64,000 bases of DNA from Heterodontus francisci (lineage: Eukaryota), in the NCBI RefSeq assembly GCF_036365525.1, contig NC_090377.1, positions 79,903,198-79,967,197 on the forward strand, in the 5' to 3' direction. Positions 6,270 through 58,100 of this stretch are shown here, piece after piece. The stretch's first letter is position 1, and each line of letters begins with the position of its first letter. A program made the position numbers and the translations under genes. Below the pieces are notes generated by a model. That model saw only the letters and a list, made by a program, of their open reading frames with translations, had not been told where the DNA came from and ran no database searches.

Positions 6270-6812
6270 AAAGCAAAATACTGTGGATGCTGGAAATCTG
6301 AAATACAAACAGAAAATACTGGAAATACTCAGAAGGTCAGGCTGCATCTATGGATAGAGAAACAGAGTTATGTGTGTACAGCAGTGTGCACCATCGACAA
6401 AATGCACCAAGGCTCTTTAGACAGCACCTTTCAAGCCTGTGACCTCTACTACCTAGAAGGACAAAGGCAGAAAATGCGTGGGAAAACCACCACCTGCAAG
6501 TTCCCCTTCAAGCCGCACACCATCCTGACTTGGAACTATATCGCTGTTCCTTCACTGCCGCTGAGTCAAAATTCTGGAACTCCCTTCCTAACAGCATTGT
6601 GGGTGTACCTACCCCACATGGACTGCAGCGGTTCAAGAAGGCAGCTCAGTAATTAGGGATGGGCAATAAATGCTGTCCTAGCCAGCGATGCCCACATCCC
6701 ATGAATGAATAAAAAAAGGTAATGTTTCAGATTGATGTCCTTTTATCAGAAAAGTACTGTTTATCGGTCCACAGATGTTGTCTGTCTTGCTGAGCATTAT
6801 TAGAATGTTTTA
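6270..6812. mobile_element. Older Penelope-terminus-derived inverted-repeat element interrupted by a LINE
   Basis: 6270-6370 is the reverse complement of the 33375-33480 type sequence; it resumes at 6719 (GTAATGTTTCAG..CCTTTTATCAGAA) and then turns into the opposite arm (CCACAGATGTTG..CTTGCTGAG). Confidence 0.65.
6375..6717 (+). mobile_element. 3' end of an L2/Crack-like LINE
   Basis: Clearly similar to about 18240-18610; shared end GGGATGGGCAATAAATGCTG..GCCCACATCCCAT plus A-rich tail. Confidence 0.75.
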
Positions 6813-6855
6813 GTGGCAATACTTAATTTGCTTCACATGATTAATGAAAACCTAC

Positions 6856-18610: not shown

Positions 18611-19114
18611 ATCTGCCAAATGCCCCCTTTTAATGCTTCATCCTACTCTATAAATCCTTTTGCCATCCAGAGAGCTTTGGCTTTGTTTGCTCTCACTTTG
18701 CCCCTTGTGGAAATGTACATAGACTGTACCCAGACCATCTCTTCTTTTAGTGTCCCCTATTGCACCACTGCATTTTTGCCTTCTTGTTTTTGATTCCAAT
18801 TTACCTGAGCCAGTTCCCTCCCCAATTCATAGGAATTAACCCTTCCCCATTTAAGTATTTTCATTCTAGATTTCTCCTTGTCCTCCTCCATAACTAGTCT
18901 AAACTTTATGATACTATGATCCCTATTCCTGACATGCTTCTCCACTGTGACATATTCCTCTTGACCCATTTCTTTCCCTAGGATTGAATCCAGCAATGAC
19001 TTCTTCCTCATTACTGATTAAGAAAGTTCTCCTGAACATACTTCAGAAATTCCTCCCCCATGATCAAGTCGAATCAGGAAACATCGAGAATAAAAAAATA
19101 TGAATACAACTTAC

Positions 19115-19399
19115 CCAGAACTTTAACATTCACGAACACTGCCTTTTCGCCTGCTGCATTTACAAGGGTCAGCGAATATTTGCCAGAATCATCACGAGTA
19201 CTATCAGGAATGACGAGAAAAGCCATTGTGTCAATTAAGTCTACTTGACCCTTTCTGACAACATTGTCTATTCCCACTCTCCTCCAGGTAACTTTAGGTG
19301 CAGGTCGGCCTCTGATAGTGGCAAACAACCTGATAGGACATCCTGCTCTGACGGTTACAGTCTTTCTCAGGCTTGCATCTAAATCAATCTCTGGTGGTT
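19115..19399 (-). CDS. TTN: Titin exon, Ig A43 (first C-zone domain), 285 nt
   Basis: AG/GTAAGT; FATIRGRPAPKVTWRRVGIDNVVRKGQVDL. Confidence 0.95.
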
Positions 19400-19516
19400 C
19401 TGAAAAAAATCCATTTTGTGTGAGCAGTCATTGTGCCATAAAGAAATATTAACACATTTAAACAAAATGTTTTATTTACCTCACAAAGAGAAAAAAAGGC
19501 AAAATGCAGTGCCTAC

Positions 19517-19837
19517 CTAACACCTCCTTTGGTGATACTGCTTCCTTCAGTTCAGCAGGGCGACCAATTCCAACCTGGTTCTGTGCAGAAACTCTAAATT
19601 CATATTCTTGTTTCTCATCAAGGCTGGTCACAGTAAACTGAGTAAGAACAAGGTGAGCTGCAACATTACATCTCTTCCATCCTTCTTCAGGTGATTTGCT
19701 GACACCTTTTGGTCTTATTTCAACAATATAGCCAATGATGGGGGAACCACCATCATAGACTGGCTTTGTCCAGCTAAGGGAAATGGAACTCTTGGTACTA
19801 TCGATCACCTTTAGACCACTTGGAGGACCAGGAGGTT
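19517..19837 (-). CDS. TTN: Titin exon, Fn3 A42 (last D-zone domain), 321 nt
   Basis: AG/GTAGGC; DSTKSSISLSWTKPVYDGGSPIIGY. Confidence 0.95.
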
Positions 19838-19960
19838 CTGTGCACAGAAAGTAGGAAATGGATTAGGAGAATGTGATGTGAGTGACAGCAAATTTAAAGA
19901 GTGAGAAGGAACCAAAATATTCATGCTTAGAAAATACACAAAATGTTATGAAATAAATAC

Positions 19961-22927
19961 CCATAGGATCCTTTGCTAATACTGGTCTTGACGGTGGACT
20001 TGGGTCTCCTAATCCAACTTCATTTTCAGCTTTGACACGGAATTGGTATTCATGTTCAGGAATCAGATTTGTAACCTTCATACGTCTCTCTGGAATTGGA
20101 CGCTTGGTGACTGCTATCCATCTAACAGATCGTTTCTCTTTCTTCTCCAATATATATCCTGTGATTGATTTTCCACCATCATCTTCTGGTGCATTCCATA
20201 CAACAGTCATTTCTTCCTTGCTAACTTTCGTGATCTCTGGTGCATCTGGAGGGCCAGGTCTATTAAACTGTGTCTTAGCTACAATTGGCTTAGTTTCTGT
20301 TGGTGGACCTGTACCTATTTTGTTTTCTGCACGTACCCTGAAGATATATTCGTTTCCTTCAATAAGACGAGTGACATTTGTATAATCGGTAATTATAGAA
20401 GAGGAATATATGGACCAGACCACTCTCTTACTTTCACACTTCTCTAGAATATAGTTTTGAATTTCACAACCCCCATCATCTGCTGGTGGGTCCCAGCTGA
20501 CTCTGCACCTATCACTTGCAATGCCAGAGACCTTTAGGTTTCTGACTTCACTTGGTACATCCAAAACATTCACGGTAGCATAGGCTGTAAAGCTACCAGC
20601 TGGATTTGTTGCAGTGATTACATATTTGCCACTGTTCTCACGTTTAGCTTTAATTATAGTAAGTCTGGATGCATCAGCAGTTGTTTCAATCTTAGCTCGA
20701 GGTGATCTGCTCAGATCAATTGCTTCTTTGTCTTTTACCCAAACAACTTCTGGTTGAGGTTTGCCTCTGAGAGTTGCCTCAATTCTGATGGTTTCACCTA
20801 CTTTTACAGTTAGTATTCCAGTTAGCTTTAGCTCCAAAACCGGCTTCTGCATTTCTTGCTTTACAATAATATAATCTGTCTTCACCCAGTTGCTTTCACC
20901 ACCTTCATTCTTAGTCTGAACTCGAAACTGGTAGCTCTGGTTCTCAATACATCTGTCAGCCATGAAACTAGTGTCTTTAATACTTCCTTTGTGTATTCTT
21001 TCCCATTCATCTGAGTCCTTTAGCCTTCTTTCAACATGATAAGACAGGTTGGGACTACCGCCATCATAATCGGGTCTCCTCCATTTAAGCAGAACAAATG
21101 TCTTTCCTATATCAGCAACATGAAAATTTTCAGGTTCTCCAGGTTTTTCAACAGGATCAATGGCTAAGATTGGTGTTTTGGTTTCAATGGTTGGACCTAG
21201 TCCAACTTTGTTTTCTGCACACACGCGGAAGAAGTACTCATGATTTGTTGAAATTTGAACCTTGACCACACGTTTAGTCAAATCAGATGAGATCACAGAC
21301 CATCCTCTCTGGCTGGGTTGACGGTTTTCTGCTATGTAGTTAGTAATTTCTGAGCCTCCATTATCGTCTGGATTTTCCCAGGCAAGCATACAGGAATCTT
21401 TAGTGATGTAGCTTACCTTGATATTCTTACAAGGGCCAGGTCTATCAAGGACATTGACAATAACAGCAGCTTGGGCATGTCCACTACTGTTTTTAGCAAC
21501 AATAGTATATTTACCATGGTCAGCTCTGGTTGCATCTTTAATCAAGAGTTGTATAACAGGGTAGTCATTATTCATCTTTACACGTTTGTCAGCAGAAAGT
21601 ACCTTGCCTTCTTTTGACCATGTAATTTCTGGATCCGGTCTGCCTTTAACACGGCCAGTTATGGCAATAGTTTGTCCCACACGAGCTGTGACCAGCTCAC
21701 GGCAAACAATATCAAGTTCTAGTTCTGGAGGATGAAGAATATCCTTTGTAATTACAGATTCCGGTAGTTCTCTTGGCTCACCTTCACCAACTATATTGGC
21801 AGCCTTTATACGGAATCGATACTCATTGCCTTCAATAAGACCAGGTACTCTAAAAGCACACTGTTGGATTAAGTCATCTTTATTAATCCTATTCCACGTT
21901 GTCATATTTGCTTTCTGACATTCTACAATATAACCTAAGATTGGGCTGCCTCCATCCTTGGTGGGCTTTGTCCAGACTAAGTCAACCGTTTCTCTTGTCT
22001 TGTCTTTCAGTTTAGGATTGATTGGCGGTCCAGGTGGCCTAATAGGACGCTTTGCTGAAACTGGATCAGAGATTGGTGATGGTTTACTTAAACCAGCAAT
22101 ATTTTCAGCAAATATTCTGAATTCATACATATTTCCTTCAAAAAGTCCAACAGTTCTCAATTTTAGATCCAATACTGGGGTCTTATTCACCCGTATCCAT
22201 TTACCAGTTGTTTCTCTGCGTTCCATAAGGTAACCAATAATTGGGCTACCACCATCGTACTTTGGTATGCCCCAAGAAACTGTTGCAGCATTTTCTGTGA
22301 CATCAGAAACAAGTGGTTTAGTAGGTGGTCCTGGAACATCAAACATGTACTTGGCAACAGTTGGTTTAGACTCTAGTGGTTCACCAATACCAATTTTGTT
22401 TTCTGCTCGAACACGCATAATGTATTCACATCCTTTTTGAAGACGTGGAATTTTAACTTGAGTGCTTGTGCTTCCAGTGCTGACAACACCCCAGGTTTCA
22501 TTCTTAGTTTCTCGCTTCTCAACAATGTAATTCATGACAGGACTTCCACCATCATCCTTAGGTGGACGCCAAGAGATAACCATGTGCTCTGGTGTTACTT
22601 CGAGGATATTGATTGGACCAACTGGAGGGCCAGGAACATCCAGGACTATTAAGTGTAGACCTACTGTCTTGCTACCAGCTGGATTGGAAACAGTAAGTAA
22701 ATATTCACCAGTGTGCTTTCTAGTACAATCCTTAATAGAAAGCACCGTTGAGTAGATATCAGTATCAATTTTGTAATTGCCTTCTGATTTAAGCTCAGTA
22801 TTGTCAGTGACCCATTTCACTGAAGGAGGAGGAATGCCTCTCATCAAAGCAGGAAGTCTGACTGTGCTGCCAGCCTTCACAACAAGACCTTCAATCAACT
22901 TTACATCTATATCCAACGATGGGGATA
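19961..22927 (-). CDS. TTN: Titin large exon, ten domains A32-A41 (Ig-Fn-Fn-Fn-Ig-Fn-Fn-Ig-Fn-Fn), 2967 nt
   Basis: 1030-aa ORF trimmed to atAG acceptor and GTATTT donor; 2967=989x3. Confidence 0.97.
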
Positions 22928-23042
22928 CTATAAAACAAAACCATATATGAACCAATGAGTGTCATGAAAATGTCAATGAAATACAGATTGAAAGCAATGG
23001 GAAACAGAAATCAAATAGTATGAGTCAATGTAAGTAACTAAC

Positions 23043-30971: not shown

Positions 30972-31101
30972 CAAGAACATTTACTCTGACATGTACGGTT
31001 TTTTGTCCAGCCTTGTTCTTAGCAGTAATACTATATCGACCAGAATGGCTTCTGTTACATGCTGAAATAACCACAGTTGTCTTAGTTTCGGTACTTTCCA
31101 C
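30972..31101 (-). CDS. TTN: Titin exon, C-terminal part of Ig A15, 130 nt
   Basis: gtAG/GTATGT; VESTETKTTVVISACNRSHSGRYSITAKNKAGQKTVHVRVNVL. Confidence 0.92.
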
Positions 31102-31214
31102 CTACAAAAGACAAAAAGATGAACCATTAATCAGTAAGCAAAATGCAATTTTTATTTCTACATTCCAAAATGTCAAATGTGATACAGTAAAAGAATCATT
31201 AAACACATTATTAC

Positions 31215-31247
31215 CTGGACATCAGCTGGTAGATTATGTCCTTCATC
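31215..31247 (-). CDS. TTN: Titin 33-nt microexon within Ig A15 (DEGHNLPADVQ)
   Basis: ttttgtttAG acceptor, CAG/GTAATA donor, phase 0-0; resembles the mammalian titin peptide DGVHDIPEDAQ at the same position (recalled, not searched). Confidence 0.85.
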
Positions 31248-33280
31248 CTAAACAAAACAGTAAAACATCAAATGTTACAAAATTTGTTTAATTTTTTTGA
31301 GGAAAAATCTATGATTATTGCTGATTGATTTGTTCTGGAGAAGATTCCATGTTAAGCTTGCCCCCAATTATTTTTGTAATGATGTCATGCTGGATGGTGC
31401 CACATGTGATCTTCAGCTGGGGTCTGCATTATGGCTCCATTTCATTTTGACCCAACAGTGATGTGAACCAATTTCAAACAAGATAATATATAATCCAATC
31501 AAAAACGCAAACACAGCGTGTCTGAGGCGATAGCTGGGAGGAATCATAGTTTGTGAAAGACACCTATGATTTAAAGAATGAAGACCACCGTTCTTCAATG
31601 GATATCCTTCATGTAGAGCCCCATAGCAAACTAAAACTAATCAGAATGGGGGGAGGGGAGGAGTGAACACTCATGCTGAGGAGCTTTAACCACTGCTGTC
31701 AGAAGAGATCTGTCTAAACATTAGCCCTGATTTTAAACTAACCAGTCCATCTTAACACCCTGTCCAATTATACTCTCAATTGAAGTAAAGTGCAATGTTT
31801 CTGCCTCTGTCATTCTCTTTGGCAAGCATTCCATTTTCCAATAACTCTGTGAGTAAAGAAATTTCTCCTAATCTCTCTCATCACTCCTTTATTGCCAATT
31901 TTAAGTTACTGACTCGCCAACAAAAAGACATAAGGGGCTAAATTGGATAGCCCTTGAAATTGGGCATGGGGATCATGATGCGTAACTACCCCATGCCCAT
32001 TCAAAGTGATGCAGACAGCACACAAACTTCATGCTGCTTACTAATTATAATAATAGTGGTGTGTAGTCCAGCACTACATGGGCTGCTGAGCGGCTGCATG
32101 CTTCAGCAAGGGCACAAGTTCGTGCAAGACAAGCACCACTTAAAGCTAGCCTGCACTATTTAAATTCAGACTGCATCACTTAAAGGCAAGTAGCATCCCG
32201 GCTGCAGCAGAAGCTGAAACTGATTAGAGTGGAAGATTAGGATGAAGCTGTAAAAATGGCACACCAGGCCAGAGAGCATGCTCCAAGGTACTCAGATGCC
32301 ACGTTGGAGGCCTTGGTGCAGGAGAAAAGAGGTCCTCTTCTTTCAGTGGCTCAGGAAGCCCTCTAGAAACATTCTGAAGAGGCAGTGGGAGCAGGTAGCC
32401 ACAGCAGTCAATGTCAGCAGTTTAGCGCTGAGGGCCTGGATGCTGGGTCAGAGAAGTTTAATGACCTGATACAAGTGGCTAAGGTCACTAAATGCATCTT
32501 CACATGCCATATCCTACTAACTACACCACTTGGCCTCAGACACTGCTCCATTTATCACACTTCCTCCACTCGCTTGCCAACAATCTCGATCAATCATGAC
32601 TCATACCTCACATTCATAGCATAACCTCACCCTCACATATTTATCACTGCTGCAAGCCACACACTCACATCTTCCAACTTGCAACACTGCCAGCTTTTCA
32701 ATCTGTAGTTGGTGTAACCATGCACCTCTTTCTTTTCCCTCTTCCCTCATCCCAACCTTGCCCTTGTGCCTTTACACTTTGAAATACCCAAGAACTGCTG
32801 GCTGGCCAGCAGTGGTGCGGGAGGCTGAAGGCCTGGATGAAAATGAAACTAAGGAGAAAGAAACACTGTAACTCGATCTGCAATTCACAGCCACCCACTC
32901 AGATACTGGCACAGTTGAAAGTTAGATGGTAGCATAGAGGTGAGATCTGCACAGGGTGAATCACCAGGCACGAGTGGGGAAAAGGATCACACAAGTATCA
33001 GCTTCCCAGAGGATGAGGTAGCAAACAAGTTCTGCTGCAGAGGACTTAGATGAGGACTTCAATGGGGCGATGTATAGAAAAAGGCTGATGGGCATGCACA
33101 CAAAATGCTGGTGCATTGGCTGGACTGCCAGAAAGTCTGCTGCTATCATTTAGCATGGAGAAGTCTGGCTCCAACTTGGCACAGAGCTTTGCACAGAGCG
33201 TGAAAGCCATTCTTTTCCGTGTGGAAGCAGTGACCAACTCCATGAGAACACTTGTGGAACTGACCATGATACAGCATCTG

Positions 33281-33478
33281 GCAGCATCTGTGGAAAGAGA
33301 AGCAGAGTTAACGTTTCGGGTCAATGACCCTTCTTCGGAAGCAGAGTTCCGAAGAAGGGTCACTGACCCGAAACGTTAACTCTGCTTCTCTTTTCACAGA
33401 TGCTGCCAGACCTGCCGAGGGATTCCAGCATTTCTTGTTTTTATTTCAGATTTCCAGCATCCGCAGTATTTTGCTTTT
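33281..33478. mobile_element. Palindromic Penelope-terminus-derived insertion with 15-bp TSD
   Basis: TSD ATGATACAGCATCTG at 33266-33280 and 33479-33493; inverted arms 33277-33340 and 33347-33410. Confidence 0.85.
33341..33385 (+). ncRNA. Putative minimal type I hammerhead ribozyme (variant core)
   Basis: Stem I GCAGAGUU/AACUCUGC, core CCGAAGA(A), stem II GGGUC-ACU-GACCC, GAAA, palindromic ACGU in place of stem III, predicted cleavage after GUU at 33377; activity untested. Confidence 0.55.
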
Positions 33479-33719
33479 ATGATACAGCATCTGTTGGCCA
33501 ATGTCTCAACTTCCATTGTAGCCCAAGGAGAAACCACCCAACATCTGAGTGCTGCAGTGGAAACTCAGACTGAGGTCATGAAATCTCAGCTTGTTGCCTT
33601 GAAAGCCCAGCACAAGGGTGATTAGTTGAGTACTGTATAGAGTATTGGATGTTTTGTTGGATTAAGTTGGTATAGAACGGATGCTTTGTAGTGGCTTTTA
33701 TTTCAGCATTGTGGCCAAG

Positions 33720-34910
33720 AGGACACAGTGATGGTCAGTGACAGAGGGAAGGTAAGGTGTGTGACTGTTGCAGAATGGGGATTTCGGGTTATGTTCAGTG
33801 GAATCATAATAAAATGAGGCAATCATAGACAGCCTGGCCGGAAAGAGGATTTGTTGCTTGCCTGCTCCCTTTCTCCTGCATCTCAGCTGCTCACAAGTGG
33901 CAGGGGTCATGCCTTCGTGATAGCAAGGATATGCAGGACACATCAGACCACGGCGAATTGGGACACATCCTCTGGCCAATACTATAGGGCTCCTCCAGAG
34001 TGGTCCAGACAGCTGAAGCGTTGGTTGGGCACGCCAATGGTCTGCTCTATGATGTTTTGTGTGGCAGCATGGCTCTCATTATAGGCATACTGGTCACGTG
34101 TGCTTGGGTTGCGCGGCGGAGTCATGAGCCAGTTGTTAGACGGATAGTCCTTTTCACCCTGCACACAACCCTCTAGTTAATGTGCTGGCACAAATACTGA
34201 GAGACCAGTGAACTGGCACAAAATGCATGCATCCTGACTGCTGCTAGCATAGTGAGCATTCACCTGCATAATATGCTGAGCATGGTCACACACCATTGTG
34301 AGTGAGTGCTAATCTTTGAGATTGCAGTACATCTCAACATTTTGATACGATGCCCGCAAAGCCACATGTGTGCAGTCGATGGTGCCTTGCACCATGGAGA
34401 AGCGTGCGTTCCTGGCAAAGCCACATGAATGCTCCTCCTGCTTCTCTCTAGTCAGAGGGAAGACAATGAACTTCCCTCTCCTGACATAAAGCGCATCGGT
34501 CACATCCCTTATGCAGCATTGGACAATGAAATGGGAGATGTTAAAGATGTCACCTGCTCAAGCCTGGAAAGGTCCTGACACAAAGAAATTCAGGGCCACA
34601 GTGAGCTTCACAGTCATTGGATGCACGGTCCATACCCTGCTCTGAGGTTGCAGGTCTGACTGCAAAAGATGGCAGATTTCCTTAAGCGCCTCCTTTGCAA
34701 AGCCGAGTCAATGCACTTACTGCCCCTGGCTTAGGTGGATGTAAAAGAAATTCTATGGGAGACCCTGGGTGGATAAGGCCTCCTGCTGAGAGCCCACCAC
34801 CGCCTACTCCTCCTCCTCCCCCTGTGAGCAGTTTGTCCTCTTCTGTGTTGCCTCTGCTCATTCTCCCTGTCGTGCTGCAGGTCAAGGGGGATTGTTATTA
34901 TAGCACCCAT
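33720..34910 (-). pseudogene. Harbinger (HARBI1-like) DDE transposase relic
   Basis: VQGTIDCTHVAL; GEKDYP..WLMTP..YNESHAATQNIIEQTIG..RFSCLDHSGGAL; stops and frameshifts. Confidence 0.88.
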
Positions 34911-36310
34911 GACTGGGAGAAAGTGGTCTAACCACAGCCCTTGAAGTCAAAACCAAGGCCATCTCCATGTGCAACACCACTCCCTGTCGACTTACCAACT
35001 TTAAACAACTCTGCACTGGTGAAGGGGCCCATTCTGCTGCCAAATACAAGTTCAGCAGTGCATGTTTAAGAGAGGGTGATAGCTGGAGTGGCGAGATCAA
35101 AAATGACAATGCTGGTGTCAAATCAGTGTTAGATGCTGACTGATGGCATGACCTGCTTGCTCTGCAAACGTCTGGCACATGCTCCTAACGCCCAGGTTAC
35201 TGACCTCCCCAAAATGGCATCCGACGAGGGGCATGCTGGGACTGTGACCAAAATGGCAACCATAGTGCCGGCACTACCGAGCCATGTTTTGCGGCCTGTG
35301 TCTTTTGCCAGAATAAGATCAAATACCCACAAATAAACTTCTACTATGGCAAATCCATCCAGGAAGGAGGTGGGGAGATAATAACCCAGAGCACTGTCAC
35401 ACACAGGTCACGCACGAGTTCCGCTGCAAAGGACTCAGAGGACTTAGATGGGGTGGCGAACAGGACAGCAGTGATGTGCATACAGAGAATCTTGGTGCAT
35501 TGGTAGGCCTGCCATAGAGTCTATTTTACTGTCAAGGAGCATGGAGCAGTCCTGCTCCAACTTGGCACAGGGCTTTGCACAGAACTTGGGAGCCCATTCT
35601 CTCCAGTGTGGAAGTAATGGCCAATGCCATGACAATGTTTGCTGATGCATACGTGATGCAGCATCTGGTGGTGATGTCTCAGCTTCCACTGCAGTACAGC
35701 CAGAAGCCACCCAGCCTTAGGGCTGCAGTGGAAACTCAGACTGAAGTCATACCATCCATGCTTGTTGCCATGCAAGCCCAGATTGGTACCATGCAGGTTC
35801 TGACTGCAACCATCATGGTTACAGATACGAATGCTCAAAGGGGTATGCAGGCTCTCATAGCAGTCTAGTAATCTGTTCTCCAGCAGATGACTAGGATTGC
35901 TGAGCTGCTGCCTTGTGGGAGTGCCACTGACTCCATGGAGCATGAACTTGCTGTCTTCTCACAGGATGACAGCATTCATATTCCCATCACTGCCACTCTG
36001 CCAGTCCCCTTGCTGTTGCCTTCCAGCCAGACTGCGGGGCCCTCAAGGCCTAGAGCTGCTCGAGGTTGTCCGGCAGGACCACCTGCAGTCTGTGCCACTG
36101 AAAGTCAAGAGCCTTCCATCAGCCAAGCTGCAGTCACTGGGGTAGCACTGTGTAGAAGTACTCAGAAAAGACTTGTGCTCACTCCTCCTTCTGTCTGGTA
36201 AGTGTTACGAAAGTGCTTCTATATTTTTTGTCAAGTATGTTTTTGAAGACATATTTAAATTGTGAAGATGGAGTCATTGAAAGCTGAAGATTTCATAGAA
36301 GCTGTACTTT

Positions 36311-36633
36311 GCTTTCGTTTTAGTTTGGAGATACAGCACTGAAACAGTCCCTTCGGTCCACCGTGTCTGTGCCAACCATCAACCATCCATTTATACTAAT
36401 TCTACACTAATTCCATATTCCTACCACCTACCTATACTAGGGGCAATTTACAATGGCCAATTTACCTATCAACCTGCAAGTCTTTGGCATGTGGGAGGAA
36501 ACCGGAGCACCCGGAGGAAACCCACGCAGTCACAGGGAGAACTTGCAAACTCCACACAGGCAGTACCCAGAATTGAACCCGGGTCGCTGGAGCTGTGAGA
36601 CTGCGGTGCTAACCACTGCGCCATTGTGCCGCC
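36311..36633 (-). mobile_element. HE1-like V-SINE
   Basis: GGGCGGCACAATGG head, GGTTCAATTC B box, GGTGCTCCGGTTTCCTCCCA V-domain, CR1-type tail. Confidence 0.85.
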
Positions 36634-37366
36634 CTTTGTTGTTGACAATTCATTGAAAAGGCACTGAGATATTGTTTAAAAACAGCCTTGTGGGAAATCA
36701 TGTGCTTTCAGCAATAAACAACAGAAACCTTGGTGACCTGGAAAGATGTTTACAAAGAAGAGACAGGTCAAGATTTCTAGGGGTCAGGAGGCTTGACTCT
36801 TGAGATATTATTTTTGGGTTCACTTTGGACTGTGTGTTGGGGTGTGTGCACTGTTTTGAAGACAGTTGGAGAAAACCAGCCAAGAGAGCAGCCACCTCTT
36901 CCATCTCTTTGAGAACTGCCTGAGAATCAAGTGTAAGAAATAGAGAAACAGAAAACCCTGCCAAACTGATCCTCAACACCGCCTGAAAAGAACTGCTCTA
37001 GAAAGATCTCAGTGACAGCCATCTATTCGTATTTGGGATGCCAAACTAAAAGGGGACAACTGACATCTTTCCATATCTTTTTTCTTCAAGAATTAGCCAG
37101 TGTTTGGCCAAAATATTCTTTTTTTCCCCTTTTTTTTGTAAGAGAGCTCTGCAGAGAGAATCTCTTTTCTTCAGTGTGTGTGTGAGTTTGTGTGTGGGGG
37201 ATTTAAAAAAGGGAACTTTCATATTTCAATCTGTGTGTTAATGCTTTGCTTCGTTACTGGTTAAGTCTTGTTATATAATAAATTGTTAATTTTGTTGTTT
37301 ATTAAAGAAACCTGATTGGTGTATTTTATTCTGGGATAAAGAGCAGAGTATATGATTGACTGTAGT

Positions 37367-37690
37367 GGGCGGCACAGTGGCTATCACCACAGTCTCACAG
37401 CTCCAGGGACCCGGGTTCGATTCTGGGTACTGCCTGTGCGGAGTTTGCAAGTTCTCCCTGTGACTGCGTGGGTTTTTGTCGGGTGCTCCGGTTTCCTCCC
37501 ATAGCCAAAGACTTGCAGGTGATAGGTACATTGGCCATTGTAAATTGCCCCTAGTATAGGTAGGTGGTAGGGAGTATGGGATTATTGTAGGGTTAGTATA
37601 AATGGGTGGTTGTTGGTCGCTACAGACTCGGTGGGCCGAAGGGCCTGTTTCAGTGCTGTATCTCTAAATAAATAAAAAATAAATAAAGTA
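37367..37690 (+). mobile_element. HE1-like V-SINE
   Basis: GGGCGGCACAGTGG head, GGTTCGATTC B box, V-domain, GGGCCGAAGGGCCTGTTTC tail and (TAAA)n. Confidence 0.85.
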
Positions 37691-37791
37691 TTGGTAACTG
37701 GGTAAACATTTTAAGAAAAATATGTTGTGAACAGTGGAGAAGTGGAACTAGAAACGACAATGCACTCCTCCAGCCTTGGTTGTAATATAAG

Positions 37792-40500
37792 AACAAGGAG
37801 CAGGAGTAGGCAATTCAGCCTCTCGAGCCTGCTCCGCCATTCAATACGATCATGGCTGATCTCATCTCGGCCTCATCTCCACTTCCCTGCCAGTTCTCCA
37901 TAACCCTTCAACCCATTACTAATTAAAAATCTGTCTATCTCCTCCTTAAATTTACTCAATGTCCCGTCATCCACTGCACTCTGACCCTTTGAGAGAAGTA
38001 ATTTCTCCTCATCTCTGTTTTAAATCTGCTACCCTTTATCCTAAAACTATGACCTCTCGTTCTAGATTGCCCCACCAGAGGAAACATCCTCTCTGCGTCT
38101 ACTTTGTCAATCCCGTTAATCATCTTATATACCTCAATTAGATTTCCTCTCATTCTTCTAAACTCTAGTGAGTAAAGGCCTAAACTGCTCAATCGCTCTT
38201 CATAAGACAAACCCCTCATCTCTGGAATCAATCTAGTGAACCTCCTCTGAACTGTCTCCAATGCAACTACATCCCTCCTCACGTAAGGGGACCAAAACTG
38301 TACGCAATACTCCAGGTATGGTCTCACTAATGCCTTGTACAGTTGCAGCAACACTTCCCTACTTTTATACTCTATTCCTTTAGCAATAAATGCCAAAATT
38401 CCATTTGCCTTCCTTATTACCTGCTGCACCTGCATACTAGTTTTCTGCGATTCATGCACGAGGACACCCAGATCCCTTTGCACTGAAGCACTCTGAAATT
38501 TCTCCCATTTAGATCATAATTTGCCTTTCTATTCTTCCAACCAAAATGGATAACCTCACATTTAGCCACGTTAAACACTATCTGCCAAATTTTGGCCCAT
38601 TCACCTAACCTATCCATATCCATTTGTAAATTTCTTATTTCTTTATTGCAACTTACTCTCCCACCTATTTTCATGTCATCTGCAAATTTGGCTATAGTAC
38701 CTTCTATCCCTGCATCCAAGTTATTAATATAGATTGTAAATAGTTGGGGCCCAAGGACCGAACCCTGTGGCACCCCACTAGTTACATCTTGCCAACCAGA
38801 AAAGGACCCATTTATCCTGACTCTCTGTTTCTGTTGGTTAGCCAATCCTCTATCCAAGCTAATAAATTGCCCCAACCCCATGTGATCTTACCTTGTGTAT
38901 TAACCTTTTGTGTGGCACCTTATCAAATACTACAGCTACAGGATCCCCATTATCCACTTTACTTGTTACATCTTCAAAGAACTCTAGCAAATTAGTCAAA
39001 CACGATTTACCCTTCATAAAACCATGCTGACTCTGATGGATTGCGTTTTGACTTTCCAAATATCCTGTTATTACTTCCTTAATAATGGATTGTAACAATT
39101 TCCCAATAACAGATGTTAAACTAACAGGTCTATAGTTTCCTATTTTCTTCCTCCCTCCCTTTTTAAATAAGGGCATTATATTAGCATTTTTCCAATCTAC
39201 TGGAATCTTCCCTTCATCTGGGAAATTTTGGAATATTATAACCAATGGATCCACTATCTCCACTGCCACTTCCTTTAAGACCCTAGGATGAAGGCCATCA
39301 GGCCCTGGGGACTTGTCTGCCTTCAATCCCAATAGTTTGCTCAGTACTTTTTCCCTAGTGATGATGATTGTTCTAAGTTCTTCCCTTTCTATAACCTCTG
39401 CATTACCTTTTATTATTGGGATGGTACTAGTGTCCTCCACCGTGAAAACTGAGGTAAAATACTTGATTTAGTTTCTCTGCCATTTTTGTTTTCCCCACTA
39501 TTAACTCCCCAGTCACATCCTCCAAGGGACCAACATTCACTTTAGCTACTCTCTTTCTTTTTTTGTACTTATAGAAGCTTTTGCTATCCATTTTTATATT
39601 TTGCGCTATTTATTTCATAATTTACCTAGCTCTTTTTATTACTTTTTAGTATCCCTTTGTTGATCTTTAAAAGTTTTCCAATCTTCCAGCCTTCCACTGG
39701 CCTTTGCAATATGATATGCCTTCGCTTTTGTCTTCATGTTATCCTTAACTTCCTTGCATAGCCATGGATGTTTTTTCCTCCTCTTACAATCTTTCTTCCT
39801 CTCTGGAATATATTTTAGTTGCGAGGAATTCAATATCTCCTTAAACATCTGCCACTGCTCATCAACTGTCCTACCATTTAGTCTTCCTGCCCAGTCCACT
39901 AGGGCCAAATCTGTCCTCATGCCTATGTAATTACCTTTGTTTAACTCCAGAACGCTAGTGTGGGACTCCAGTTTCTCGCCGTCAAACTGGATTTGAAATT
40001 CTAGCATGCTATGATCACTCTACCCGAAAGGATCCTTAACTATGAGATCATTAATTAATCCCACCTCATTACACAATACCAAATCTAGAATAGCCTGCTC
40101 TCTGGTTGGTTCCACAACATACTGCTCCAAAAAACAATCTCTAATACATTCAATGAACTCTCCCTCGAGGCTACCCTTGCCAATTTGATTAATCCAGTCT
40201 ATATGCATATTAAAATCACCCATGATTATTGCTGTACCTTTCTTTTCCTTCCTGCCTATCCTTCCAAAATACTGAGTACCCTTGGATATTCAATTCCCAA
40301 ACCTGGTTTCCCTGCAACCACGTCTCAGCAATCGCCACTAAATCATACCCATTCGTCTCTATTTACGCTGTTAACTCATTAATTTTATTCTGAACGCTTC
40401 ATGCATTCAGATACAAAGCTTTTAAGTTTGTTCTATTATCAAATTTCCCTACTCTTGTAAGATTCCTTGGTGCAATATGGCGTTCACATGTTCTGTCCCT
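37792..40500 (-). mobile_element. CR1 LINE, most of ORF2 (APE endonuclease to RT to 3' UTR), decayed
   Basis: LYLNA..ETWL, MGDFN, KSPGPDG, NYRPVSLTS, GVPQGSVLGP, KFADD, RDLGV, LVRPYLEYC. Confidence 0.93.
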
Positions 40501-40503
40501 ACC

Positions 40504-41876
40504 AAAGCATTAATTAGACTGCAACCAGAGTACTGTGTACAGTTCTAGTTGTCACATTACAGGAAGGATATGATTGCATTAGAGAGGCTACAGAGGACAT
40601 TTACAAGGATGTTGCCAGAAATGGAGAGTTTTAGCTATGAGAAAAGATTGGATAGGCCGGGGTTGTTTTCTTTGGAACAGAGGAGGCTGTTGGGAGATTT
40701 AATTGAGTTATATTAAATTATGAGGGGCCTGGACAGGAAGGACCTATCTCCCTCAACAGAGAGGTCAATAACCAGGGGGCAAAGATTTAAGGATTAGAGG
40801 GGAGTTGAGGGGAATTTTTTTCACGCCAAGGATGGTGGAGATCTGCAACTCATTGCCTAAAAGGTTGGTGGAGGCAGACACCCTCATCGTATTAAAAAGT
40901 ACTTGGATATTGTTATGATCTTGTAGGGTTTTTTTTCAGGAAGAATGTGGTGTGCCTTTAAGGCTGGAAAAGAAACCGTACTGCTTTAAGGCAGCAAGCC
41001 CCAGAAACTCAGTCAAAGAGTGCATTCTTGCTGCCCGGCATATAGCCATTCAGGACCAGAGATCGAGCGATACATTGTTAGAATTCAATTTTGAACTGGT
41101 TTATCGTGGAAACAGACTGTTCTAACTCAGAGACATAGATAGACAACTGGTCCAGCAGGAACAGAACAGAGATCTCTGATAATTTAAACTGAAGGAAGGG
41201 ACGTTAGACTGTGTCAATCTTTTATCCCTCAAAAATTCTAAAGTCAAATTGATTCATTAAAAAGTGTTTGCAAGTTGTTAATTGTTGAAATTTATCGCTG
41301 GAGAAGGAAAGCATCACTTACTGCTGAATTAGACTATGGATTGTTCTACTGTTGAAGAACCTTTTCTTTTCCCCCCATCGGATGGCTTTGAGGACTTCAA
41401 GCAACCTTGGACTATTCCACATTGGAAGATTTCACTGCGGCAGGAGCGTAATATGCAAGGACTTTAATTTTTCTATTTTAAATGTTGTTTATATCTTAGT
41501 AGTGTTTAAGAATTTAGTTTTTCTAATTAAACAGTTAATTTGTTGATTTAAAGACACCTGGTTTGATTAGCCTCATTCGGGGGGCTTAATAGATGGTACA
41601 ATTTGGCTGGGTGTTTCTTTAATTTGGCAAGTTTAAGATATGTTAGGCAATCTATGGAGGGACGGGATTGAATTAACAGTGCATTTCTCCCACCACAATC
41701 AGAATCGTATATTTTGATTGGGGCATTGACTGGAGCGGTTGGTTGTAACAATATGCACTTGAAGTGCTGTAACCTACAAGGATACAAAGCTGGAAAGTAT
41801 AGGTTGGATAGCTCTCTTTTGGCTTCTACAGACACAAATCGCTCATTTTGTGCTGTAAGTTTCTATGATTCTATGA
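40504..41876 (+). mobile_element. CR1 3' fragment split by a solo LTR
   Basis: EYCVQF..LERLQRTFTRM remnants; sequence resumes in register at 41755; TTCTATGATTCTATG tail. Confidence 0.85.
40911..41750 (+). mobile_element. Solo LTR, 840 bp
   Basis: TGTTATG...TGTAACA termini; ATAT TSD at 40907-40910 and 41751-41754; cleanly interrupts a CR1. Confidence 0.85.
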
Positions 41877-42276
41877 AATAGCACTAGTGGGGGAATCCCT
41901 TATGCTGTTGAATGAATATTCAGTTGGAAGTAATTAAGTGAGGGTGATAACAGGACCTGTGAGGTCCAAAATGGCAGGTAGGTGCCAAACCAGCATGAGA
42001 TACTGTTTGATGTTACAATCTGCCCACTCTGCATGCTTCCGGCGCACGCATGGCATTACCGTGCTAGTATTGTTAAAATCATGGCACACATGCAGGCTGT
42101 GCTGCAAGTGGCCAGAATCGGTCTGCCAACATTTCTGGAGTTCCTGGCTTCCATAATGCGGCACCAGCAGCCCTAATTTCTTGGGCACACTTAAGTAATT
42201 GGAGTAATGTCCCTTATTTTCTGCTAATTGTGAATGCATTCAATCACCCTGGATACCAGAAATCTTTGAAAATTAG

Positions 42277-42924
42277 GGGGAGAATTTTATGCTCGTGGTG
42301 GGGATTTCAACGTCAGGGGAAACCGACACTGAGATCCCCGCGCCCCCTCTTCTACGGAAGGCCTGCAAAATTTAGTGCCAATCAGGCACTTAACTGAATA
42401 GCGGTGGGTCTTCCATAGGATTTAGGACTCTGTTGCTGGAAGTCCCGGTCTTGCAGGGCTGCCGCCCAATCAGAGGCCTGCAGCAGCAGCGCCTCAGCGG
42501 ATGCGGTGGCTTCTGCTGTAGCTGCAATGATCAGACACGAGCAGTGGCACTGGAGTGAGGTCGGCAGCAAGGGCAGTGGGGTGTCCCTCAGCGGCCACCC
42601 CCCTTCCCAATGCCGGATCCCTCGTTGAGGAGCCGGGAAGCAGCCCACACCATTTTTTGTGCTGTGCGGCGACAGGGCGGCCCACCACATGGGTAATTGC
42701 GGTTGCGGCGGGAAAAGCTCTTTATTGGGGGTTAATTACCCAGTTCAGGGCCTCAATTGGCAATGGAGGGTGGGTGCGGGGAAGGTCATTCATAGGATTC
42801 CCTGTACCAGACTAAATTTTGGCGGAGGTGGGTTGTGGCGGGGGAGACCCCGCCACCAACCCACCTGATTTTATGCTCTCCCCACCTCCAAACCAACCAT
42901 GGGGGAGAGAATAAAATTGAACCC
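42277..42924. mobile_element. GC-rich MITE
   Basis: Ends GGGGAGAATTTTAT / ATAAAATTGAACCC; internal CCAATCAGAGG and GGGCCTCAATTGG blocks shared with 9411-10060 and 59060-59760. Confidence 0.7.
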
Positions 42925-43110
42925 AGGTGTTTTGGCTGTAATCATTCTAAGTTTTCCTGAAAATCTTTAAAGAACTTTCCACTTGACTTCCAAAATAGAA
43001 AAAAGAAAAGCTGTTGCAGTTGCTTCCAGCGTGGGTTCAGTCATCAATATTGTGTATGCAACAACGTATTAGTTGCCAATGTATGTCACATCGCCTATTG
43101 TTGCAGTTTA

Positions 43111-43320
43111 ATAGGTAAATTGGCGGTTGTAAATAGCCCCTAGTGTAGGTTGGTGGTAGGAGAATGGTGGGGATGTGGTAGAGAATATGGGGTTAGTGTA
43201 GGATTAGTATAAATGGGTGGTTGTTGGTCGGCACAGACTCGGTGGGCCGAAGGGCCTGTTTCAGTGCTGTATCTCTAAAATAAATTTTAAAAATAAATAA
43301 GTAAATAAAAAATAAAAATT
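43111..43320 (+). mobile_element. 3' half of an HE1-like V-SINE with A-rich tail
   Basis: Matches about 37522-37690. Confidence 0.8.
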
Positions 43321-43797
43321 TACCAGACTGATTCTTGGAATGGTGGGTCTGACGTATGAGGAGAGACCGAGTCAGTTAGGATTATATTCGCTGGAGTTCA
43401 GAAGAGTGAGGGGAGATCTCATAGAAACCTATAAAATGCTAACAGGACTTGACAGGGTGGATGCAGGAAGGATGTTCCCGATGGTGGGGGAGTCCAGAAC
43501 CAGGGGTCATAGTCTAAGGATACGGGGTAAATCTTTCAGGACTGAGGAAAAATTTCTTCACCCAGAGAGTGGTGAGCCTGTGAAATTCGCTACCACAGAA
43601 AGCAGTTGAGGCCAAAACATTGTATGTTTTCAAGGAGGAGTTAGATATAACTCTTGGGTCTAAAGGGATCAAAGGGTATGGGGCGAAAGTGGGAACAGGC
43701 TACTACTGAGTTGGATGATCATCCATGACCATAATGAATGGCGGAGCAGGCTCGAAGGGCCGAATGGCCTACTCCTGCTCCTATTTTCTATGTTTCT
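43321..43797 (+). mobile_element. CR1 LINE 3' end
   Basis: GLTYEERPSQLGLYSLEFRRVRGDLIETYKML; CTCCTGCTCCTATTTTCTATGTTTC tail. Confidence 0.92.
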
Positions 43798-43826
43798 GTG
43801 TTACTGTGACTGGCATCTGATATTCA

Positions 43827-44425
43827 GGGTTGGATTTTAAGGAGCCCTTGACATTGGGATGTGTGGCGAGGGGGGGGGGGGGTGCCTGAAAATGGCCCCG
43901 GATGAGGCCTGCCATGGACCTCGACACTGGCAGGGTCCAGTCAGATCCACCTGGCTGCGGCGGGGCACCATGGCGCCACCTCACCACGCCGCTCGGTGAC
44001 GGGAGCACAACCAGCATATGCAAATGAATAAAATTATTACATTGACATGTATGTACCATTATTTTGATGTCCCACTGCAATCTTTGGGGGGAAGGGCAAA
44101 TAATTAATTTAATTGTTATTGTGGGGGTGGGAGAGGGCAAAAGAGATGTATTTATTTAATTTCATTAAATGCTTCTTTAAATATTTAAATATGCAAGTAG
44201 GGGTAATGGCTCTTTAAAAATGGTGTCGGTGCTTGTGCGCAGGCAGCTGACACTATTGCCGGGGACGGCCAACCTGCTCCCTCCATGTGATTGGCCGGGG
44301 GTGGGGGGGCCTGACCTGCCCCAGCTACTTAAATAAGCCGCCGCATTTGGAATTGCAGCAGCGCTTTGGCAGCCATTTTTTTCGCCCGTCGCCAATTTTG
44401 GCGGTGGGCTTATAAAATTCAGCTC
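43827..44425. mobile_element. GC-rich MITE
   Basis: Ends GGGTTGGATTTTAAGGAGCCC / GGGCTTATAAAATTCAGCTC. Confidence 0.65.
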
Positions 44426-45221
44426 CCAAAAAGCGGCAATTAGTAGCAAAAAATGGTCATTAAAACGGCATCAGGTTAGACTTGGTTAGTCTGCAAACTG
44501 TATAATTGAGATGGCCAAATATTGCTCAATGTACCTGGTGGCATATTATGGGGGCCAGTATGTTCTTTAAAAGAGGAGAATTGGGCTGAGAGGATCACAC
44601 GCCTTAATAGACAGAGCCTGCTAATTTTTCTTCCATTAATTTAATTCGTAGAAAAATCAGGTAAGCTGCATTGCGCATGTGTGATTTTCCCCATATTTAC
44701 CTTTCTGCACTAATGATAGTTTACATCTTGGTGGTACAAATGAAATCTACCCTGGGTGTTCTTTACAGGTCACCTAAAGTTTTGTACAAACTGTAGCAAA
44801 TTCTTTGCATTTTGGTCGGGATTATGTGCACAAAACATTTCACTTGGAGGTATCAAATAGATGGGGAGGATCAACAGAGAGCCCCTCATTCCACCGGTAG
44901 CAGCCTTATAAGTACAAGCCAGATGAAACAAAACTCCGAATCAGCTCCACCAGCCTCACCAACAAAAAGACAACTCATTTATATTATCAGGAAGGAGTAA
45001 ACAAAACGTATATAGTTCTTTGATTGTTAGAATATGTTATTCAGTCTTGTCACAGCCGGCAAACAAATTTCACTATAGTAACTCTCTAGAGCACACCCAC
45101 CAAACATTGTCATCCTCAAGCCCATATGCCCAAGGTATTTTGAATTGGGATGGCTCTGAGGATTCCTTCCCAGGGACATAGGTGACCATACAGACCTACA
45201 TATAATTAAAATATTTCATAC

Positions 45222-45370
45222 CGTCATCACTGTCTTAGCTTGTCCTTCAAACTCCCAATTAATCTTTGGAATAGGACGGCCTTTGACAATAGCTGGAATT
45301 CTCAAAGGTGCACCAGCATGGCAACTGAGGAGATCTTGTGCACCCAGTTCCAATATTATATCTGGTTCCT
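45222..45370 (-). CDS. TTN: Titin exon, N-terminal part of Ig A15, 149 nt
   Basis: acAG/GTATGA; EPDIILELGAQDLLSCHAGAPLRIPAIVKGRPIPKINWEFEGQAKTVMT; ends in phase 0. Confidence 0.92.
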
Positions 45371-55949: not shown

Positions 55950-58100
55950 ATAACAACAATTTACATTTATATAAAGCACTTAACATAGTAAAATGTTCCA
56001 AGGCGCTTAACAGGAGAATAACAATAAAATTATTTTTGATACTGAGCCATTGAAGGAGAAATAAGGGCAGATAACCAAAAGTTTGATCAAACACGTACGT
56101 TTTAAGGAGCATCTCAAAAGAGCCCCTCATGACTGCAGGATGTCCTAAAACACTTTACAGTGAATGAAGTAGTTTTGAAGTGTAGTCACTATTGCAATGT
56201 AGGAAAGGCAGCAGCTAACCTGCACACATCAAACTGCCATAAACAGCAATGTGGTAATGTCCAGATAATCTGTTTTAATGACGTTGATTGAGAGATAAAG
56301 AGGAGCAGAGAGGTGGAGAGGTAAGTACAGCTGCCAATGGTGGAGCAATTAAAAGCAGGAATGCACAAGAGCAAGAATTAGAGCAGCGCAGAGATTGCGA
56401 AGGCTTATAGGGCTGGAGCAGGCTGCAGAGATAGGGAGGGATGAGATCATGGAGGGATTTGAAAATAAGGACGAGGATTTTAAAATTAAGGTGTTGTCAA
56501 ACAGGGAGCCAATGAAGATCAGCAAACACAGGGGTGATGGGCGCATGAGTTTTGGAGCGAGCTAAGATATGGGCAGCAGGGTTTTGGATGAGCACAAGTT
56601 TATGTAGGGTGGAAGCTGGAGGTCAGCCAGGAGAGCATTGGAATAGTCAAGCCTGGAGGTAACATAGGCATGGATGAGGGTTTCAACAGCAGATGAGCAG
56701 GGTCGGAGTCAAATGATGTTACCGAGGTGGAAGTAAGCAGTCTTGGTGGTAATGCAGATATGTGGTCAGAAACTCATCTCAGGGTCAAACACAACACCAA
56801 AGTTGTGAACTGTCTTGGTAAGCTTAAGACATTTACCAGTAATGGAAATGGTGAACAAGAAACAGAGTTTGTGATGGAGACCAATATATAGTTGGAGAAA
56901 ATTTTTACTTATCCAAAATTAAATGTCGAACAAGCAATGTAACAAAACAGAGACTATGGAGATGTCCAAGGAGGTGATAGTGAGATAGAGCTGAACGTCA
57001 TAAGTATACACATGGGAACCTGATGTTGTATTTTCTTATATTACTGGGGTAGAATGTAGATAAGAAATAGAAGGTGGCCAAGGATAAATCCTTGGGAAAC
57101 TCTAGAGATAACCGAAGAGAAGCCATTGTAGGTGATTTTCTGTCCACGATTAGATAGATAGGAATGGAACCAAGCAGATCCCTCCAGTTGGACAACAGAG
57201 GAGAGGTGTTGGAGGAGGATGATGTGATCAACTGTGTTTAAAGCTGCAGATAGGTCAAGAAAGATGAGAAGGGTAGGTTATCACAGTCACAAAGAAATCA
57301 GCACAGATTTAACACATGCAAGGACTTGGGAGAGGAAAGGGAAGTTGGAAAAGGGGGCAGTAGTTTACAGATACAGAGTGGTCAAGTTCCGAAGAAGGGT
57401 CACTGACCCGAAACGTTAACTCTGCTTCTCTTTTCACAGATGCTGCCAGACCTGCTGAGTGGTTCCAGCATTTCTTGTTTTTATTTCAGAGTGGTCAAGA
57501 GTAGGTTATTTGAGAAGAGGAGTCAAACACCAGATTAGAAGGGTGGTGGGGACAGCACCTGAACAGAAGGAACTGTTAGTTATCAGTTAACATGAGGCTC
57601 AGAAAGGTAAGTTGTGTGGTCAACTGATTGGTTGGAAAAGGATCGAGGGAGCAGGAGGTGGGTCTCATGGACAAGATAAAGTTGGGGCAAGCACTACAGC
57701 AGATGGGATAGAAATAAATGAGTTCATGGCTAGGGCACCAGGGAACTTTTGGGGAAGTATGTCCCAAAGGGTTATGGGAAGGGATGGAAGCAGCAGAGGC
57801 AGCTGAACAGATGGTCTCGATCTTTGTGTCATTAAAGTCTATGAGCTCCTTGCACTTATTGTTAGAGGCGAGAATGGAGAAGGCATGGTAGGGTGGTTTA
57901 AAAAGATGGTTTGCAGTAGAGAAAAGAAGGCAGGGATTATCTCTGCACTCCTGGACGATATTTGAATAATGAACAGTTTTAGCAATGGAGAGCATAGCCC
58001 AATAGTGCTTTTTCCACATAAACAACCACAATAACCCAATATGCAGAGAAAATAATTTTTCCACACTCTACATGCCCATCAGGCATCAAGACAGTTGCTT
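55950..58100 (-). mobile_element. Decayed L2-clade LINE, with a Deu-SINE-like piece at about 56135-56298
   Basis: MRPTSCSLDPFPT, GVSQGFILGHLLF remnants; 3' end GTGCTTTATATAAATGTAAATTGTTGTT. Confidence 0.75.
57387..57486 (+). mobile_element. 100-bp Penelope-terminus-derived insertion with hammerhead-like motif and 13-bp TSD
   Basis: TSD CAGAGTGGTCAAG at 57374-57386 and 57487-57499; 3 differences in 104 nt from 33347-33450. Confidence 0.88.

What the first reader, a model, noticed from the sequence alone, without database searches (positions are those of the whole stretch)
33266..33493. Palindromic retro-insertion containing a minimal hammerhead-ribozyme fold with a variant CCGAAGA core
Seen: a 198-bp insert between 15-bp direct repeats, whose arms (33277-33340, 33347-33410) pair at 62 of 64 positions around a 6-nt loop. 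On the plus strand, 33341-33385 folds as a type I hammerhead: 8-bp stem I, CCGAAGA-A, 5-bp stem II, GAAA, self-complementary ACGU instead of stem III, GUU site. Established: Penelope-like element termini carry minimal hammerheads thought to cleave as dimers, and often have inverted 5' ends. Unusual: the core has C where CUGANGA has U, in both arms and in the 57387 copy, so it is a family trait, not decay. Inference: the copy with full stem I is antisense to titin; the titin-sense copy has almost no stem I and would be locked in the long hairpin, which could spare the pre-mRNA.
Basis: partly seen in the sequence, partly recalled or inferred. Interest (0 to 1): 0.7.

Follow-up and report, generated by a model that had tools for sequence, protein, structure and literature searches.

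The report
Penelope mirror stub, altered ribozyme core
This 198-base hairpin in a titin intron is one short mirror-image stub among tens of thousands of copies of a young Penelope-type jumping gene; the changed core letter of its predicted self-cutting RNA motif is shared by nearly the whole family and likely weakens cutting, but the long ribozyme stem seen here is likely a one-off joining accident and both motifs are predicted to be locked shut, so this copy is probably a silent passenger.

Summary
In detail: 15-bp target duplication, 62/64 inverted arms, and a minimal hammerhead motif with C at core position 4. The insert is an inverted stub of a young Penelope-like element (3.3-kb unit, 916-aa RT plus GIY-YIG ORF). 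C4 is a family trait: 35,895 of 37,647 exact motif matches, and 86 of 86 core-bearing copies beside an ORF start. The 4.7% with U4 behave like CpG decay. Older sister families carry U4 (42 of 44), so C4 is likely derived; one stem II pair covaries (A-U, G-U, G-C). The family's stem I is 4 bp, and the 11-bp stem here comes from the junction (0 of 90 sampled matches reach 8 bp). The hairpin is predicted to lock both motifs (49 and 54 kcal/mol). Titin introns tolerate two sense-strand U4 motifs. Copy ends pile up just before the motif, not at its cut site. Cleavage is untested. This scan noted the same family, core change and pile-up before, in this genome and others.

The parts
33266..33280 (.). 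Left target-site duplication (15 bp); its last 4 bases also match the element strand at the outer end of the inverted arm
33281..33340 (-). Inverted arm: element positions +1 to +60 (to +64 with the 4-base overlap). It holds the titin-sense hammerhead motif, with C4 core and only 2 bp of stem I
33338..33348 (+). Junction: 11 bases that are the exact reverse complement of element +32..+42. They lengthen stem I from 4 to 11 bp in this copy only
33345..33478 (+). Forward arm: element positions -1 to +132, from the predicted RNA start to the downstream of the two common 3' ends
33349..33377 (+). Minimal hammerhead motif: CCGAAGA core, extra A, stem II 33357-33361/33365-33369, GAAA, ACGU, predicted cut after 33377
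33479..33493 (.). Right target-site duplication
57374..57499 (+). Second, non-inverted stub of the same family (-1 to about +104), C4 core, 4-bp stem I, 13-bp target duplication at 57374-57386 and 57487-57499
6270..6370 (-). Older, 85% identical family stub without the core; begins at +31, next to the predicted cut site
31102..45236 (-). Approximate titin intron holding the insert (nearest Ig/Fn3 exon matches 30973-31101 and 45237-45365; small exons may be missed)

Best explanation
The insert is a head-to-head stub of a young, very abundant Penelope-like retrotransposon, likely made when both cut ends of the target primed DNA copies of the same short front end of the element's uncut RNA, and it is predicted to be catalytically silent. 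SHOWN: the parent is a 3,301-bp tandem unit with the hammerhead motif 170 bases before a 916-aa RT/GIY-YIG ORF; C4 is the parent's state; copy 3' ends fall at two sites (about +95-105 and +133-135); copy 5' ends pile up at -5..+1. INFERRED: (1) RNA starts at about -1, because a TATA-like box lies about 29 bases upstream and an initiator-like word spans the site. The motif is therefore the very 5' end of the RNA, and its 4-bp stem I begins there. (2) The forward arm was primed at about +133 and ran to the RNA start. (3) The other target end primed at +61..+64 through a 4-base match. (4) The first cDNA's end folded back through the DNA image of stem I and copied 7 more bases before the arms joined, which made the 11-bp stem. 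(5) In RNA from either strand each motif comes after its own complement, so the 64-bp hairpin wins. (6) U4-to-C arose in the lineage now active and likely slows cleavage without stopping spread.
For: Parent element. C4: 35,895 of 37,647; 86 of 86 core-bearing copies among 111 ORF starts chosen blind to the motif. U4 behaves as decay: 6 of 90 at position 4 against 6 of 45 at the control CpG +116, and all 4 distinct palindromes holding a U4 arm have C4 in the other arm. Older sisters: U4 in 42 of 44. 5' ends: 48 of 90 matches end 0-5 bases upstream and 4 of 90 end 6-29 bases upstream. In the ORF-selected set 7 of 61 ends lie at -3..+1 (0.55 expected, Poisson p=1.8e-6) and 0 at +30..+33. Two-ended priming: 18 of 21 inverted insertions have one long and one short outer end; L003 has the same 4-base match at the same place. 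Stem I and folding. Literature: PMC11167929 (two internal RT start sites, both strands extended, uncut RNA the dominant substrate); PMC3088659 (U4C lowers activity in vitro yet a viroid stays infective).
Against: No RNA start, cleavage or expression was measured; the runs available were contigs only. The same bases upstream of the motif also resemble a 3' splice site, and PMC4209133 reports an intron end at helix I in Drosophila virilis Penelope. The absence of ends at the cut site has low power (0.44 expected by chance) and cannot see cutting followed by ligation. In the older U4 families 3 of 29 copies, plus the 6270 copy, begin at +29..+31, a weak hint that cut RNA was sometimes copied. This copy's inverted arm starts at +64, outside both common sites. 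PMC3846280 explains such palindromes by self-priming on an antisense template. The polarity U4 to C4 rests on divergence and on the canonical consensus, not on a rooted tree.
Confidence: 0.8

Rival explanations
1. The C4 ribozyme still works well enough, as a dimer in tandem transcripts or with help from the element's protein. Cut unit-length RNAs are ligated into circles that give the long tandem copies, so cutting leaves no mark in DNA. This concerns the family and is compatible with this copy being silent.
For: The rest of the core, the palindromic ACGU and both stems are kept, and stem II covaries. 85 of 111 ORF-start copies reach the motif's front edge or beyond, 40 of them past the 480 bases compared. 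Tandem arrays exist. Two native motifs co-fold through the ACGU region at -25.0 against -8.0 kcal/mol for one. PMC4209133 proposes circles, PMC11167929 shows protein-assisted cleavage, and U4C is viable in a viroid.
Against: No copy end at +30..+33 in 61. Conservation within a family about 1% diverged is not evidence of selection, and the covarying pair may predate C4. Ribozyme mutants did not change insertion in vitro for the anole element.
Confidence: 0.4
2. One reading: the copy with the full stem I is an active ribozyme on the antisense strand, and orientation or the hairpin spares titin pre-mRNA.
For: The isolated 33338-33389 fragment folds with an 11-bp stem I. Core-bearing copies in titin lean antisense, 8 to 3.
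Against: The lean is not significant (p=0.23; all 20 hits 12:8, p=0.50). Two sense copies with U4 cores are tolerated. Both motifs are locked by about 50 kcal/mol. The long stem is copy-specific, and stem III still needs a partner.
Confidence: 0.04
3. The pile-up in front of the motif marks a 3' splice site or a reverse-transcriptase stall, not the RNA start.
For: A branch-point-like word and a CAG precede +1 in young and old families. There is a precedent in D. virilis.
Against: No shared upstream exon: of 65 junctions, one had adjacent plus-strand element sequence (40 bases from inside the ORF) and two had weak short non-adjacent hits. Only 7 of the 86 ORF-start copies that reach this point stop there, against 48 of 90 motif matches overall, which a purely local stall would not give.
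Confidence: 0.15
4. The palindrome arose by fold-back self-priming of one cDNA (or on an antisense template), not by priming at both target ends.
For: The junction itself shows an 11-base fold-back signature. PMC3846280 proposes self-priming.
Against: Outer ends of inverted arms fall at the second RT start site (18 of 21 long plus short). Here and in L003 the inverted arm starts at a match to the target end.
Confidence: 0.15

Closest known systems
[quoted passage not shown]
   Same: Type I motif in the terminal repeat, short helix I, extra base between positions 9 and 10.1, G10.1-C11.1 pair, palindromic 15.2-16.2 in place of stem III, thousands of scattered single copies.
   Different: C at position 4 and a GUU triplet in the active parent. 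The core variant named in the text read is U3-A8, not C4. Helix II is 5 bp.
EN+ Penelope-like elements with inverted 5' copy, tail and target duplication (Craig et al. 2021, PMC8557442, passages; Arkhipova et al. 2013, PMC3846280, passages)
   Same: Partial tandems, head-to-head inversion, optional 30-40-base tail, target duplication, TATA plus initiator-like words in the repeat. The CX2-5CxxC linker matches Neptune/Nematis.
   Different: The stub has no ORF at all, and its inverted arm starts at +64 rather than at either common end.
Poseidon_Ac (PAc) of Anolis carolinensis (Frangieh et al. 2024, PMC11167929; read parts 1-2 of 4)
   Same: Two internal RT start sites about 35 bases apart; both target strands cut and extended; uncut RNA is the main template.
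   Different: Different clade by linker motif. In PAc the ORF starts inside the ribozyme; here it starts 170 bases downstream. PAc cleavage was measured.
Natural U4C hammerhead variant of a viroid (as cited in Perreault et al. 2011, PMC3088659; passages and section 8)
   Same: Same core change, reported to lower activity in vitro yet allow infectivity.
   Different: The viroid ribozyme is a full hammerhead; the authors suggest that tertiary contacts offset such changes. This one is a minimal motif without stem III, so tolerance need not carry over.

Membership tests
EN+ Penelope-like element | Single ORF with RT and C-terminal GIY-YIG endonuclease | tested here: met
   916-aa ORF; Pfam RVT_1 E=6.2e-6 and GIY-YIG E=0.0018, both below gathering score; DKG and YIDD motifs
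EN+ Penelope-like element | Tandem or partial-tandem layout forming pseudo-LTRs that hold a hammerhead | tested here: met
   3,301-bp tandem units with the motif at each junction
EN+ Penelope-like element | Inverted 5' copy and optional 30-40-base tail | tested here: met
   21 inverted insertions among 90 matches; 3' ends at about +95-105 and +133-135
Neptune/Nematis type | CX2-5CxxC linker before GIY-YIG | tested here: met
   C-x4-C-x2-C in P0002, definition
Neptune/Nematis type | RT phylogeny groups with Neptune | not tested
   No reference PLE set was fetched
Minimal hammerhead ribozyme | Core C3 U4 G5 A6 N7 G8 A9 and G12 A13 A14 | tested here: not met
   Position 4 is C; all other core positions are met. 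It works like a min-HHR by anatomy but is a variant
Minimal hammerhead ribozyme | Helices I and II with covariation | tested here: inconclusive
   One stem II pair runs A-U, G-U, G-C across subfamilies; 65 of 500 shuffles reach the score in a 7-row alignment; stem I shows no compensatory change
Minimal hammerhead ribozyme | Palindromic 15.2-16.2 allowing a dimer | tested here: met
   ACGU present in 177 of 179 young motifs; co-fold
Minimal hammerhead ribozyme | Site-specific self-cleavage | not testable with these tools
   Only contigs were available
Non-LTR retrozyme | Short non-coding monomers in tandem arrays | tested here: not met
   Single stub with a target duplication; the tandem unit is the 3.3-kb coding element; definition from bioRxiv 10.64898/2026.07.22.740005 (abstract and Results part 1)
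MITE or microRNA hairpin | Terminal inverted repeats at both ends, or an Rfam gathering score | tested here: not met
   The inversion covers only 64 of 132 bases; miRNA hits are all below gathering score

The most novel reading that the evidence does not exclude
The currently expanding Penelope-like lineage in this genome swapped a canonical core base (U4 to C) in its master copy, lost most or all self-cleavage, and still made at least 37,000 copies and dozens of intact ORFs. Its U4 sister families sit in the same genome as a matched control. That would show that a vertebrate Penelope element does not need an efficient ribozyme, and that the motif now serves mainly as the RNA's 5' end.
Probability: 0.4. 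Interest if true: 0.5.

Novelty: new variant of a known kind. Interest (0 to 1): 0.28.

Why it matters
This one copy matters little. The family does offer a ready test of an open question, whether Penelope-like elements need their hammerhead: natural U4 (A-U), U4 (G-U) and C4 (G-C) versions coexist in one genome, and the C4 version is the one now spreading. The result also warns that long ribozyme stems at such palindrome centres can be junction products.

Tried and rejected
Rfam scan: no hammerhead hit, only sub-threshold miRNA hairpins. DNA searches with this copy returned nearly the same small set of loci twice and gave no unbiased sample. A genome-wide count of copies that begin at the predicted cut site was not obtained, so that question rests on 111 ORF-selected copies and 29 older copies. 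Sequencing runs were all assembled contigs; they showed neither RNA ends, nor splicing into +1 among the joints listed, nor an empty allele of this site. A reverse-transcribed cap G as proof of the RNA start was considered: 52 of 65 junctions have G before +1, but the native base is G and several such Gs belong to the target, so it was not used. Lunse et al. (PMC5785218), which describes PLE hammerhead variants, could not be read; only its title and a review's summary were seen, and it may already report C4. Searches for U4C, for shark plus Penelope plus hammerhead, and for Penelope plus twin priming listed no paper on this family; only listings were seen for most. PMC2377424 (passages) describes an internal TATA-less promoter in Drosophila Penelope, unlike the layout proposed here. 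PMC1636495 (passages) has no GUU data. The host being a shark comes from recall and earlier scan notes; it was not tested.

Full report
Numbering: +1 is the base at window 33347; the core is +3..+9 and the predicted cut lies between +31 and +32.

OBSERVATION. All stated features are in the sequence. The arms pair at 62 of 64 positions between identical 15-bp repeats. The host gene is titin on the minus strand: Fn3 and I-set domains in minus-strand frames, best solved-structure match titin at E=1.4e-258, and 70 minus-strand Ig/Fn3 matches with none on plus over 264 kb, with 6 minus-strand PEVK-like exons bridging the gap.

WHAT IT IS. A 30-base motif from the forward arm, with two positions left open, has 37,647 exact matches in the 6.0-Gb genome and 0 for the reversed control. 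Long copies run upstream into an ORF. A protein search gave 73 scored places, many with 924-codon open frames and several in tandem. The unit is 3,301 bp: motif, 170 bases of leader, a 916-aa ORF, about 380 bases of trailer. The protein has RT and GIY-YIG matches below Pfam's cut-offs and a C-x4-C-x2-C linker, which PMC8557442 ties to Neptune and Nematis. The insert is element -1..+132 with an inverted +1..+64 in front, a layout known for this class.

THE CORE LETTER. U4 matches number 1,752, so C4 is 35,895 of 37,647 (95.3%). I took 110 of the 150 places found with the ORF's first 100 residues (in I mostly took only the first unit of a tandem array), giving 111 ORF starts. 86 hold the core: 85 CCGAAGA, 1 CCGCAGA, none U4. 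U4 in the young family looks like CpG decay: 6 of 90 sampled matches against 6 of 45 at the control CpG +116, and each of the 4 distinct palindromes with a U4 arm has C4 in the other arm. Older sister copies found with two diverged queries (29 loci each after dropping the query's own) carry U4 in 42 of 44 with a readable core, C4 in 1 and A in 1. Their first stem II pair is A-U (43) or G-U (7), against G-C in the young family. C4 is therefore likely a recent change in the active lineage. The covariation is one event and does not beat shuffles in a 7-row alignment (65 of 500). PMC3088659 says U4C lowers activity in vitro but leaves a viroid infective.

STEM I. The parent's stem I is 4 bp. Among 90 matches (from the first 100 listed, all on contig C1, both arms of palindromes counted) the lengths were 2 bp (12), 3 (14), 4 (56), 5 (5), 6 (2) and 7 (1). 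This copy has 11. The junction bases 33338-33348 are the reverse complement of +32..+42. I infer that the cDNA end folded back through the DNA image of stem I and was briefly extended.

CAN IT FOLD? In context, forcing the hammerhead costs 48.8 kcal/mol on the plus strand and 54.4 on the titin strand; the predicted pairing probability of stem II rounds to zero on both. On either strand the complement is transcribed first. These are predictions.

IS TITIN SPARED? In the window plus 200 kb further up the gene there are 20 family hits, 12 antisense and 8 sense (p=0.50). Of those I judged by eye to have a core, 8 are antisense and 3 sense (p=0.23). Two sense copies (L381 near 1150-1260, L382 near 6700-6830) have U4 cores, the native stem I and no inverted partner found. 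The sample is small, but it gives no support for purging.

WHERE COPIES BEGIN AND END. 3' ends fall at about +95-105 and +133-135, like the two internal RT start sites of the anole element. 18 of 21 inverted insertions pair one long with one short end, as expected if both target ends prime. This copy is an exception at +64, where the target end matches 4 bases; L003 has the same junction. At the 5' side, 48 of 90 matches lose the native sequence within 5 bases upstream of +1, 4 within 6-29 bases, and 38 run on; this set cannot show ends inside the motif. In the ORF-selected set, blind to the motif, 61 ends lie between -340 and +160: 7 at -3..+1 (0.55 expected) and none at +30..+33 (0.44 expected; nearest +29 and +26). 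In 29 older copies chosen blind to sequence upstream of +31, 10 begin at -2..+3 and 3 at +29..+31; the last is a weak hint the other way. A CCAAT word, C-rich boxes, a TATA-like box about 29 bases up and an initiator-like word at -1 (read) suggest the RNA start; a splice acceptor or stall fits less well. Copied templates were thus mostly uncut at this motif, as in PMC11167929, but cutting followed by circularisation would be invisible.

NOVELTY. The layout and the motif class are described. A family-wide, derived C4 in an active vertebrate element did not appear in my searches, but the most relevant paper could not be read. Earlier notes of this scan report the same family, core change and pile-up in this genome and others; they are unchecked AI notes and add no support.

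VERDICT. A real but ordinary stub of a known class. The interest lies in the family's core change, whose effect is untested. Interest 0.28.

Noticed in passing
L381:1150-1260 (-) and L382 near 6700-6830 (-), about 41 and 57 kb beyond the window's end: Two titin-sense minimal hammerhead motifs with U4 cores about 15.5 kb apart in the same pre-mRNA; better candidates than the finding for any effect on titin RNA, though still partnerless and GUU.
   Followed up: partly
window 6270-6370 (-); L354, L368, L375: Older U4-family stubs that begin at +29..+31, next to the predicted cut site; a possible fossil trace of cutting in the older families.
   Followed up: partly
L164-L165 (G000:C23:66092500-66108500): Four tandem 3,301-bp units with intact 924-codon frames; the family looks currently or very recently active.
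   Followed up: partly
L017-L020, L022 (G000:C40): One palindromic insertion with the same flanks at five places up to 14 Mb apart: a segmental duplication or carriage by another repeat.
   Followed up: no
motif positions +4 and +23: Both of the latest changes in the young lineage are T-to-C before a G and create CpG dinucleotides, against the usual direction of decay; unexplained.
   Followed up: no
L380, about 38 kb beyond the window's end (position 102194): A more distant family copy with a different stem II and a GUC triplet, suggesting further sister lineages.
   Followed up: no
window 19110-22958 (-): Large titin A-band exon region (1,031-codon open frame of Fn3/Ig super-repeats).
   Followed up: yes
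window 38417-39464 (-) and 62503-63468 (-): LINE-type reverse transcriptase fragments in titin introns (Pfam RVT_1).
   Followed up: no
L063:1234-4660 and 5982-6649: Tandem arrays with about 70-bp and 28-bp periods next to a long family copy.
   Followed up: no
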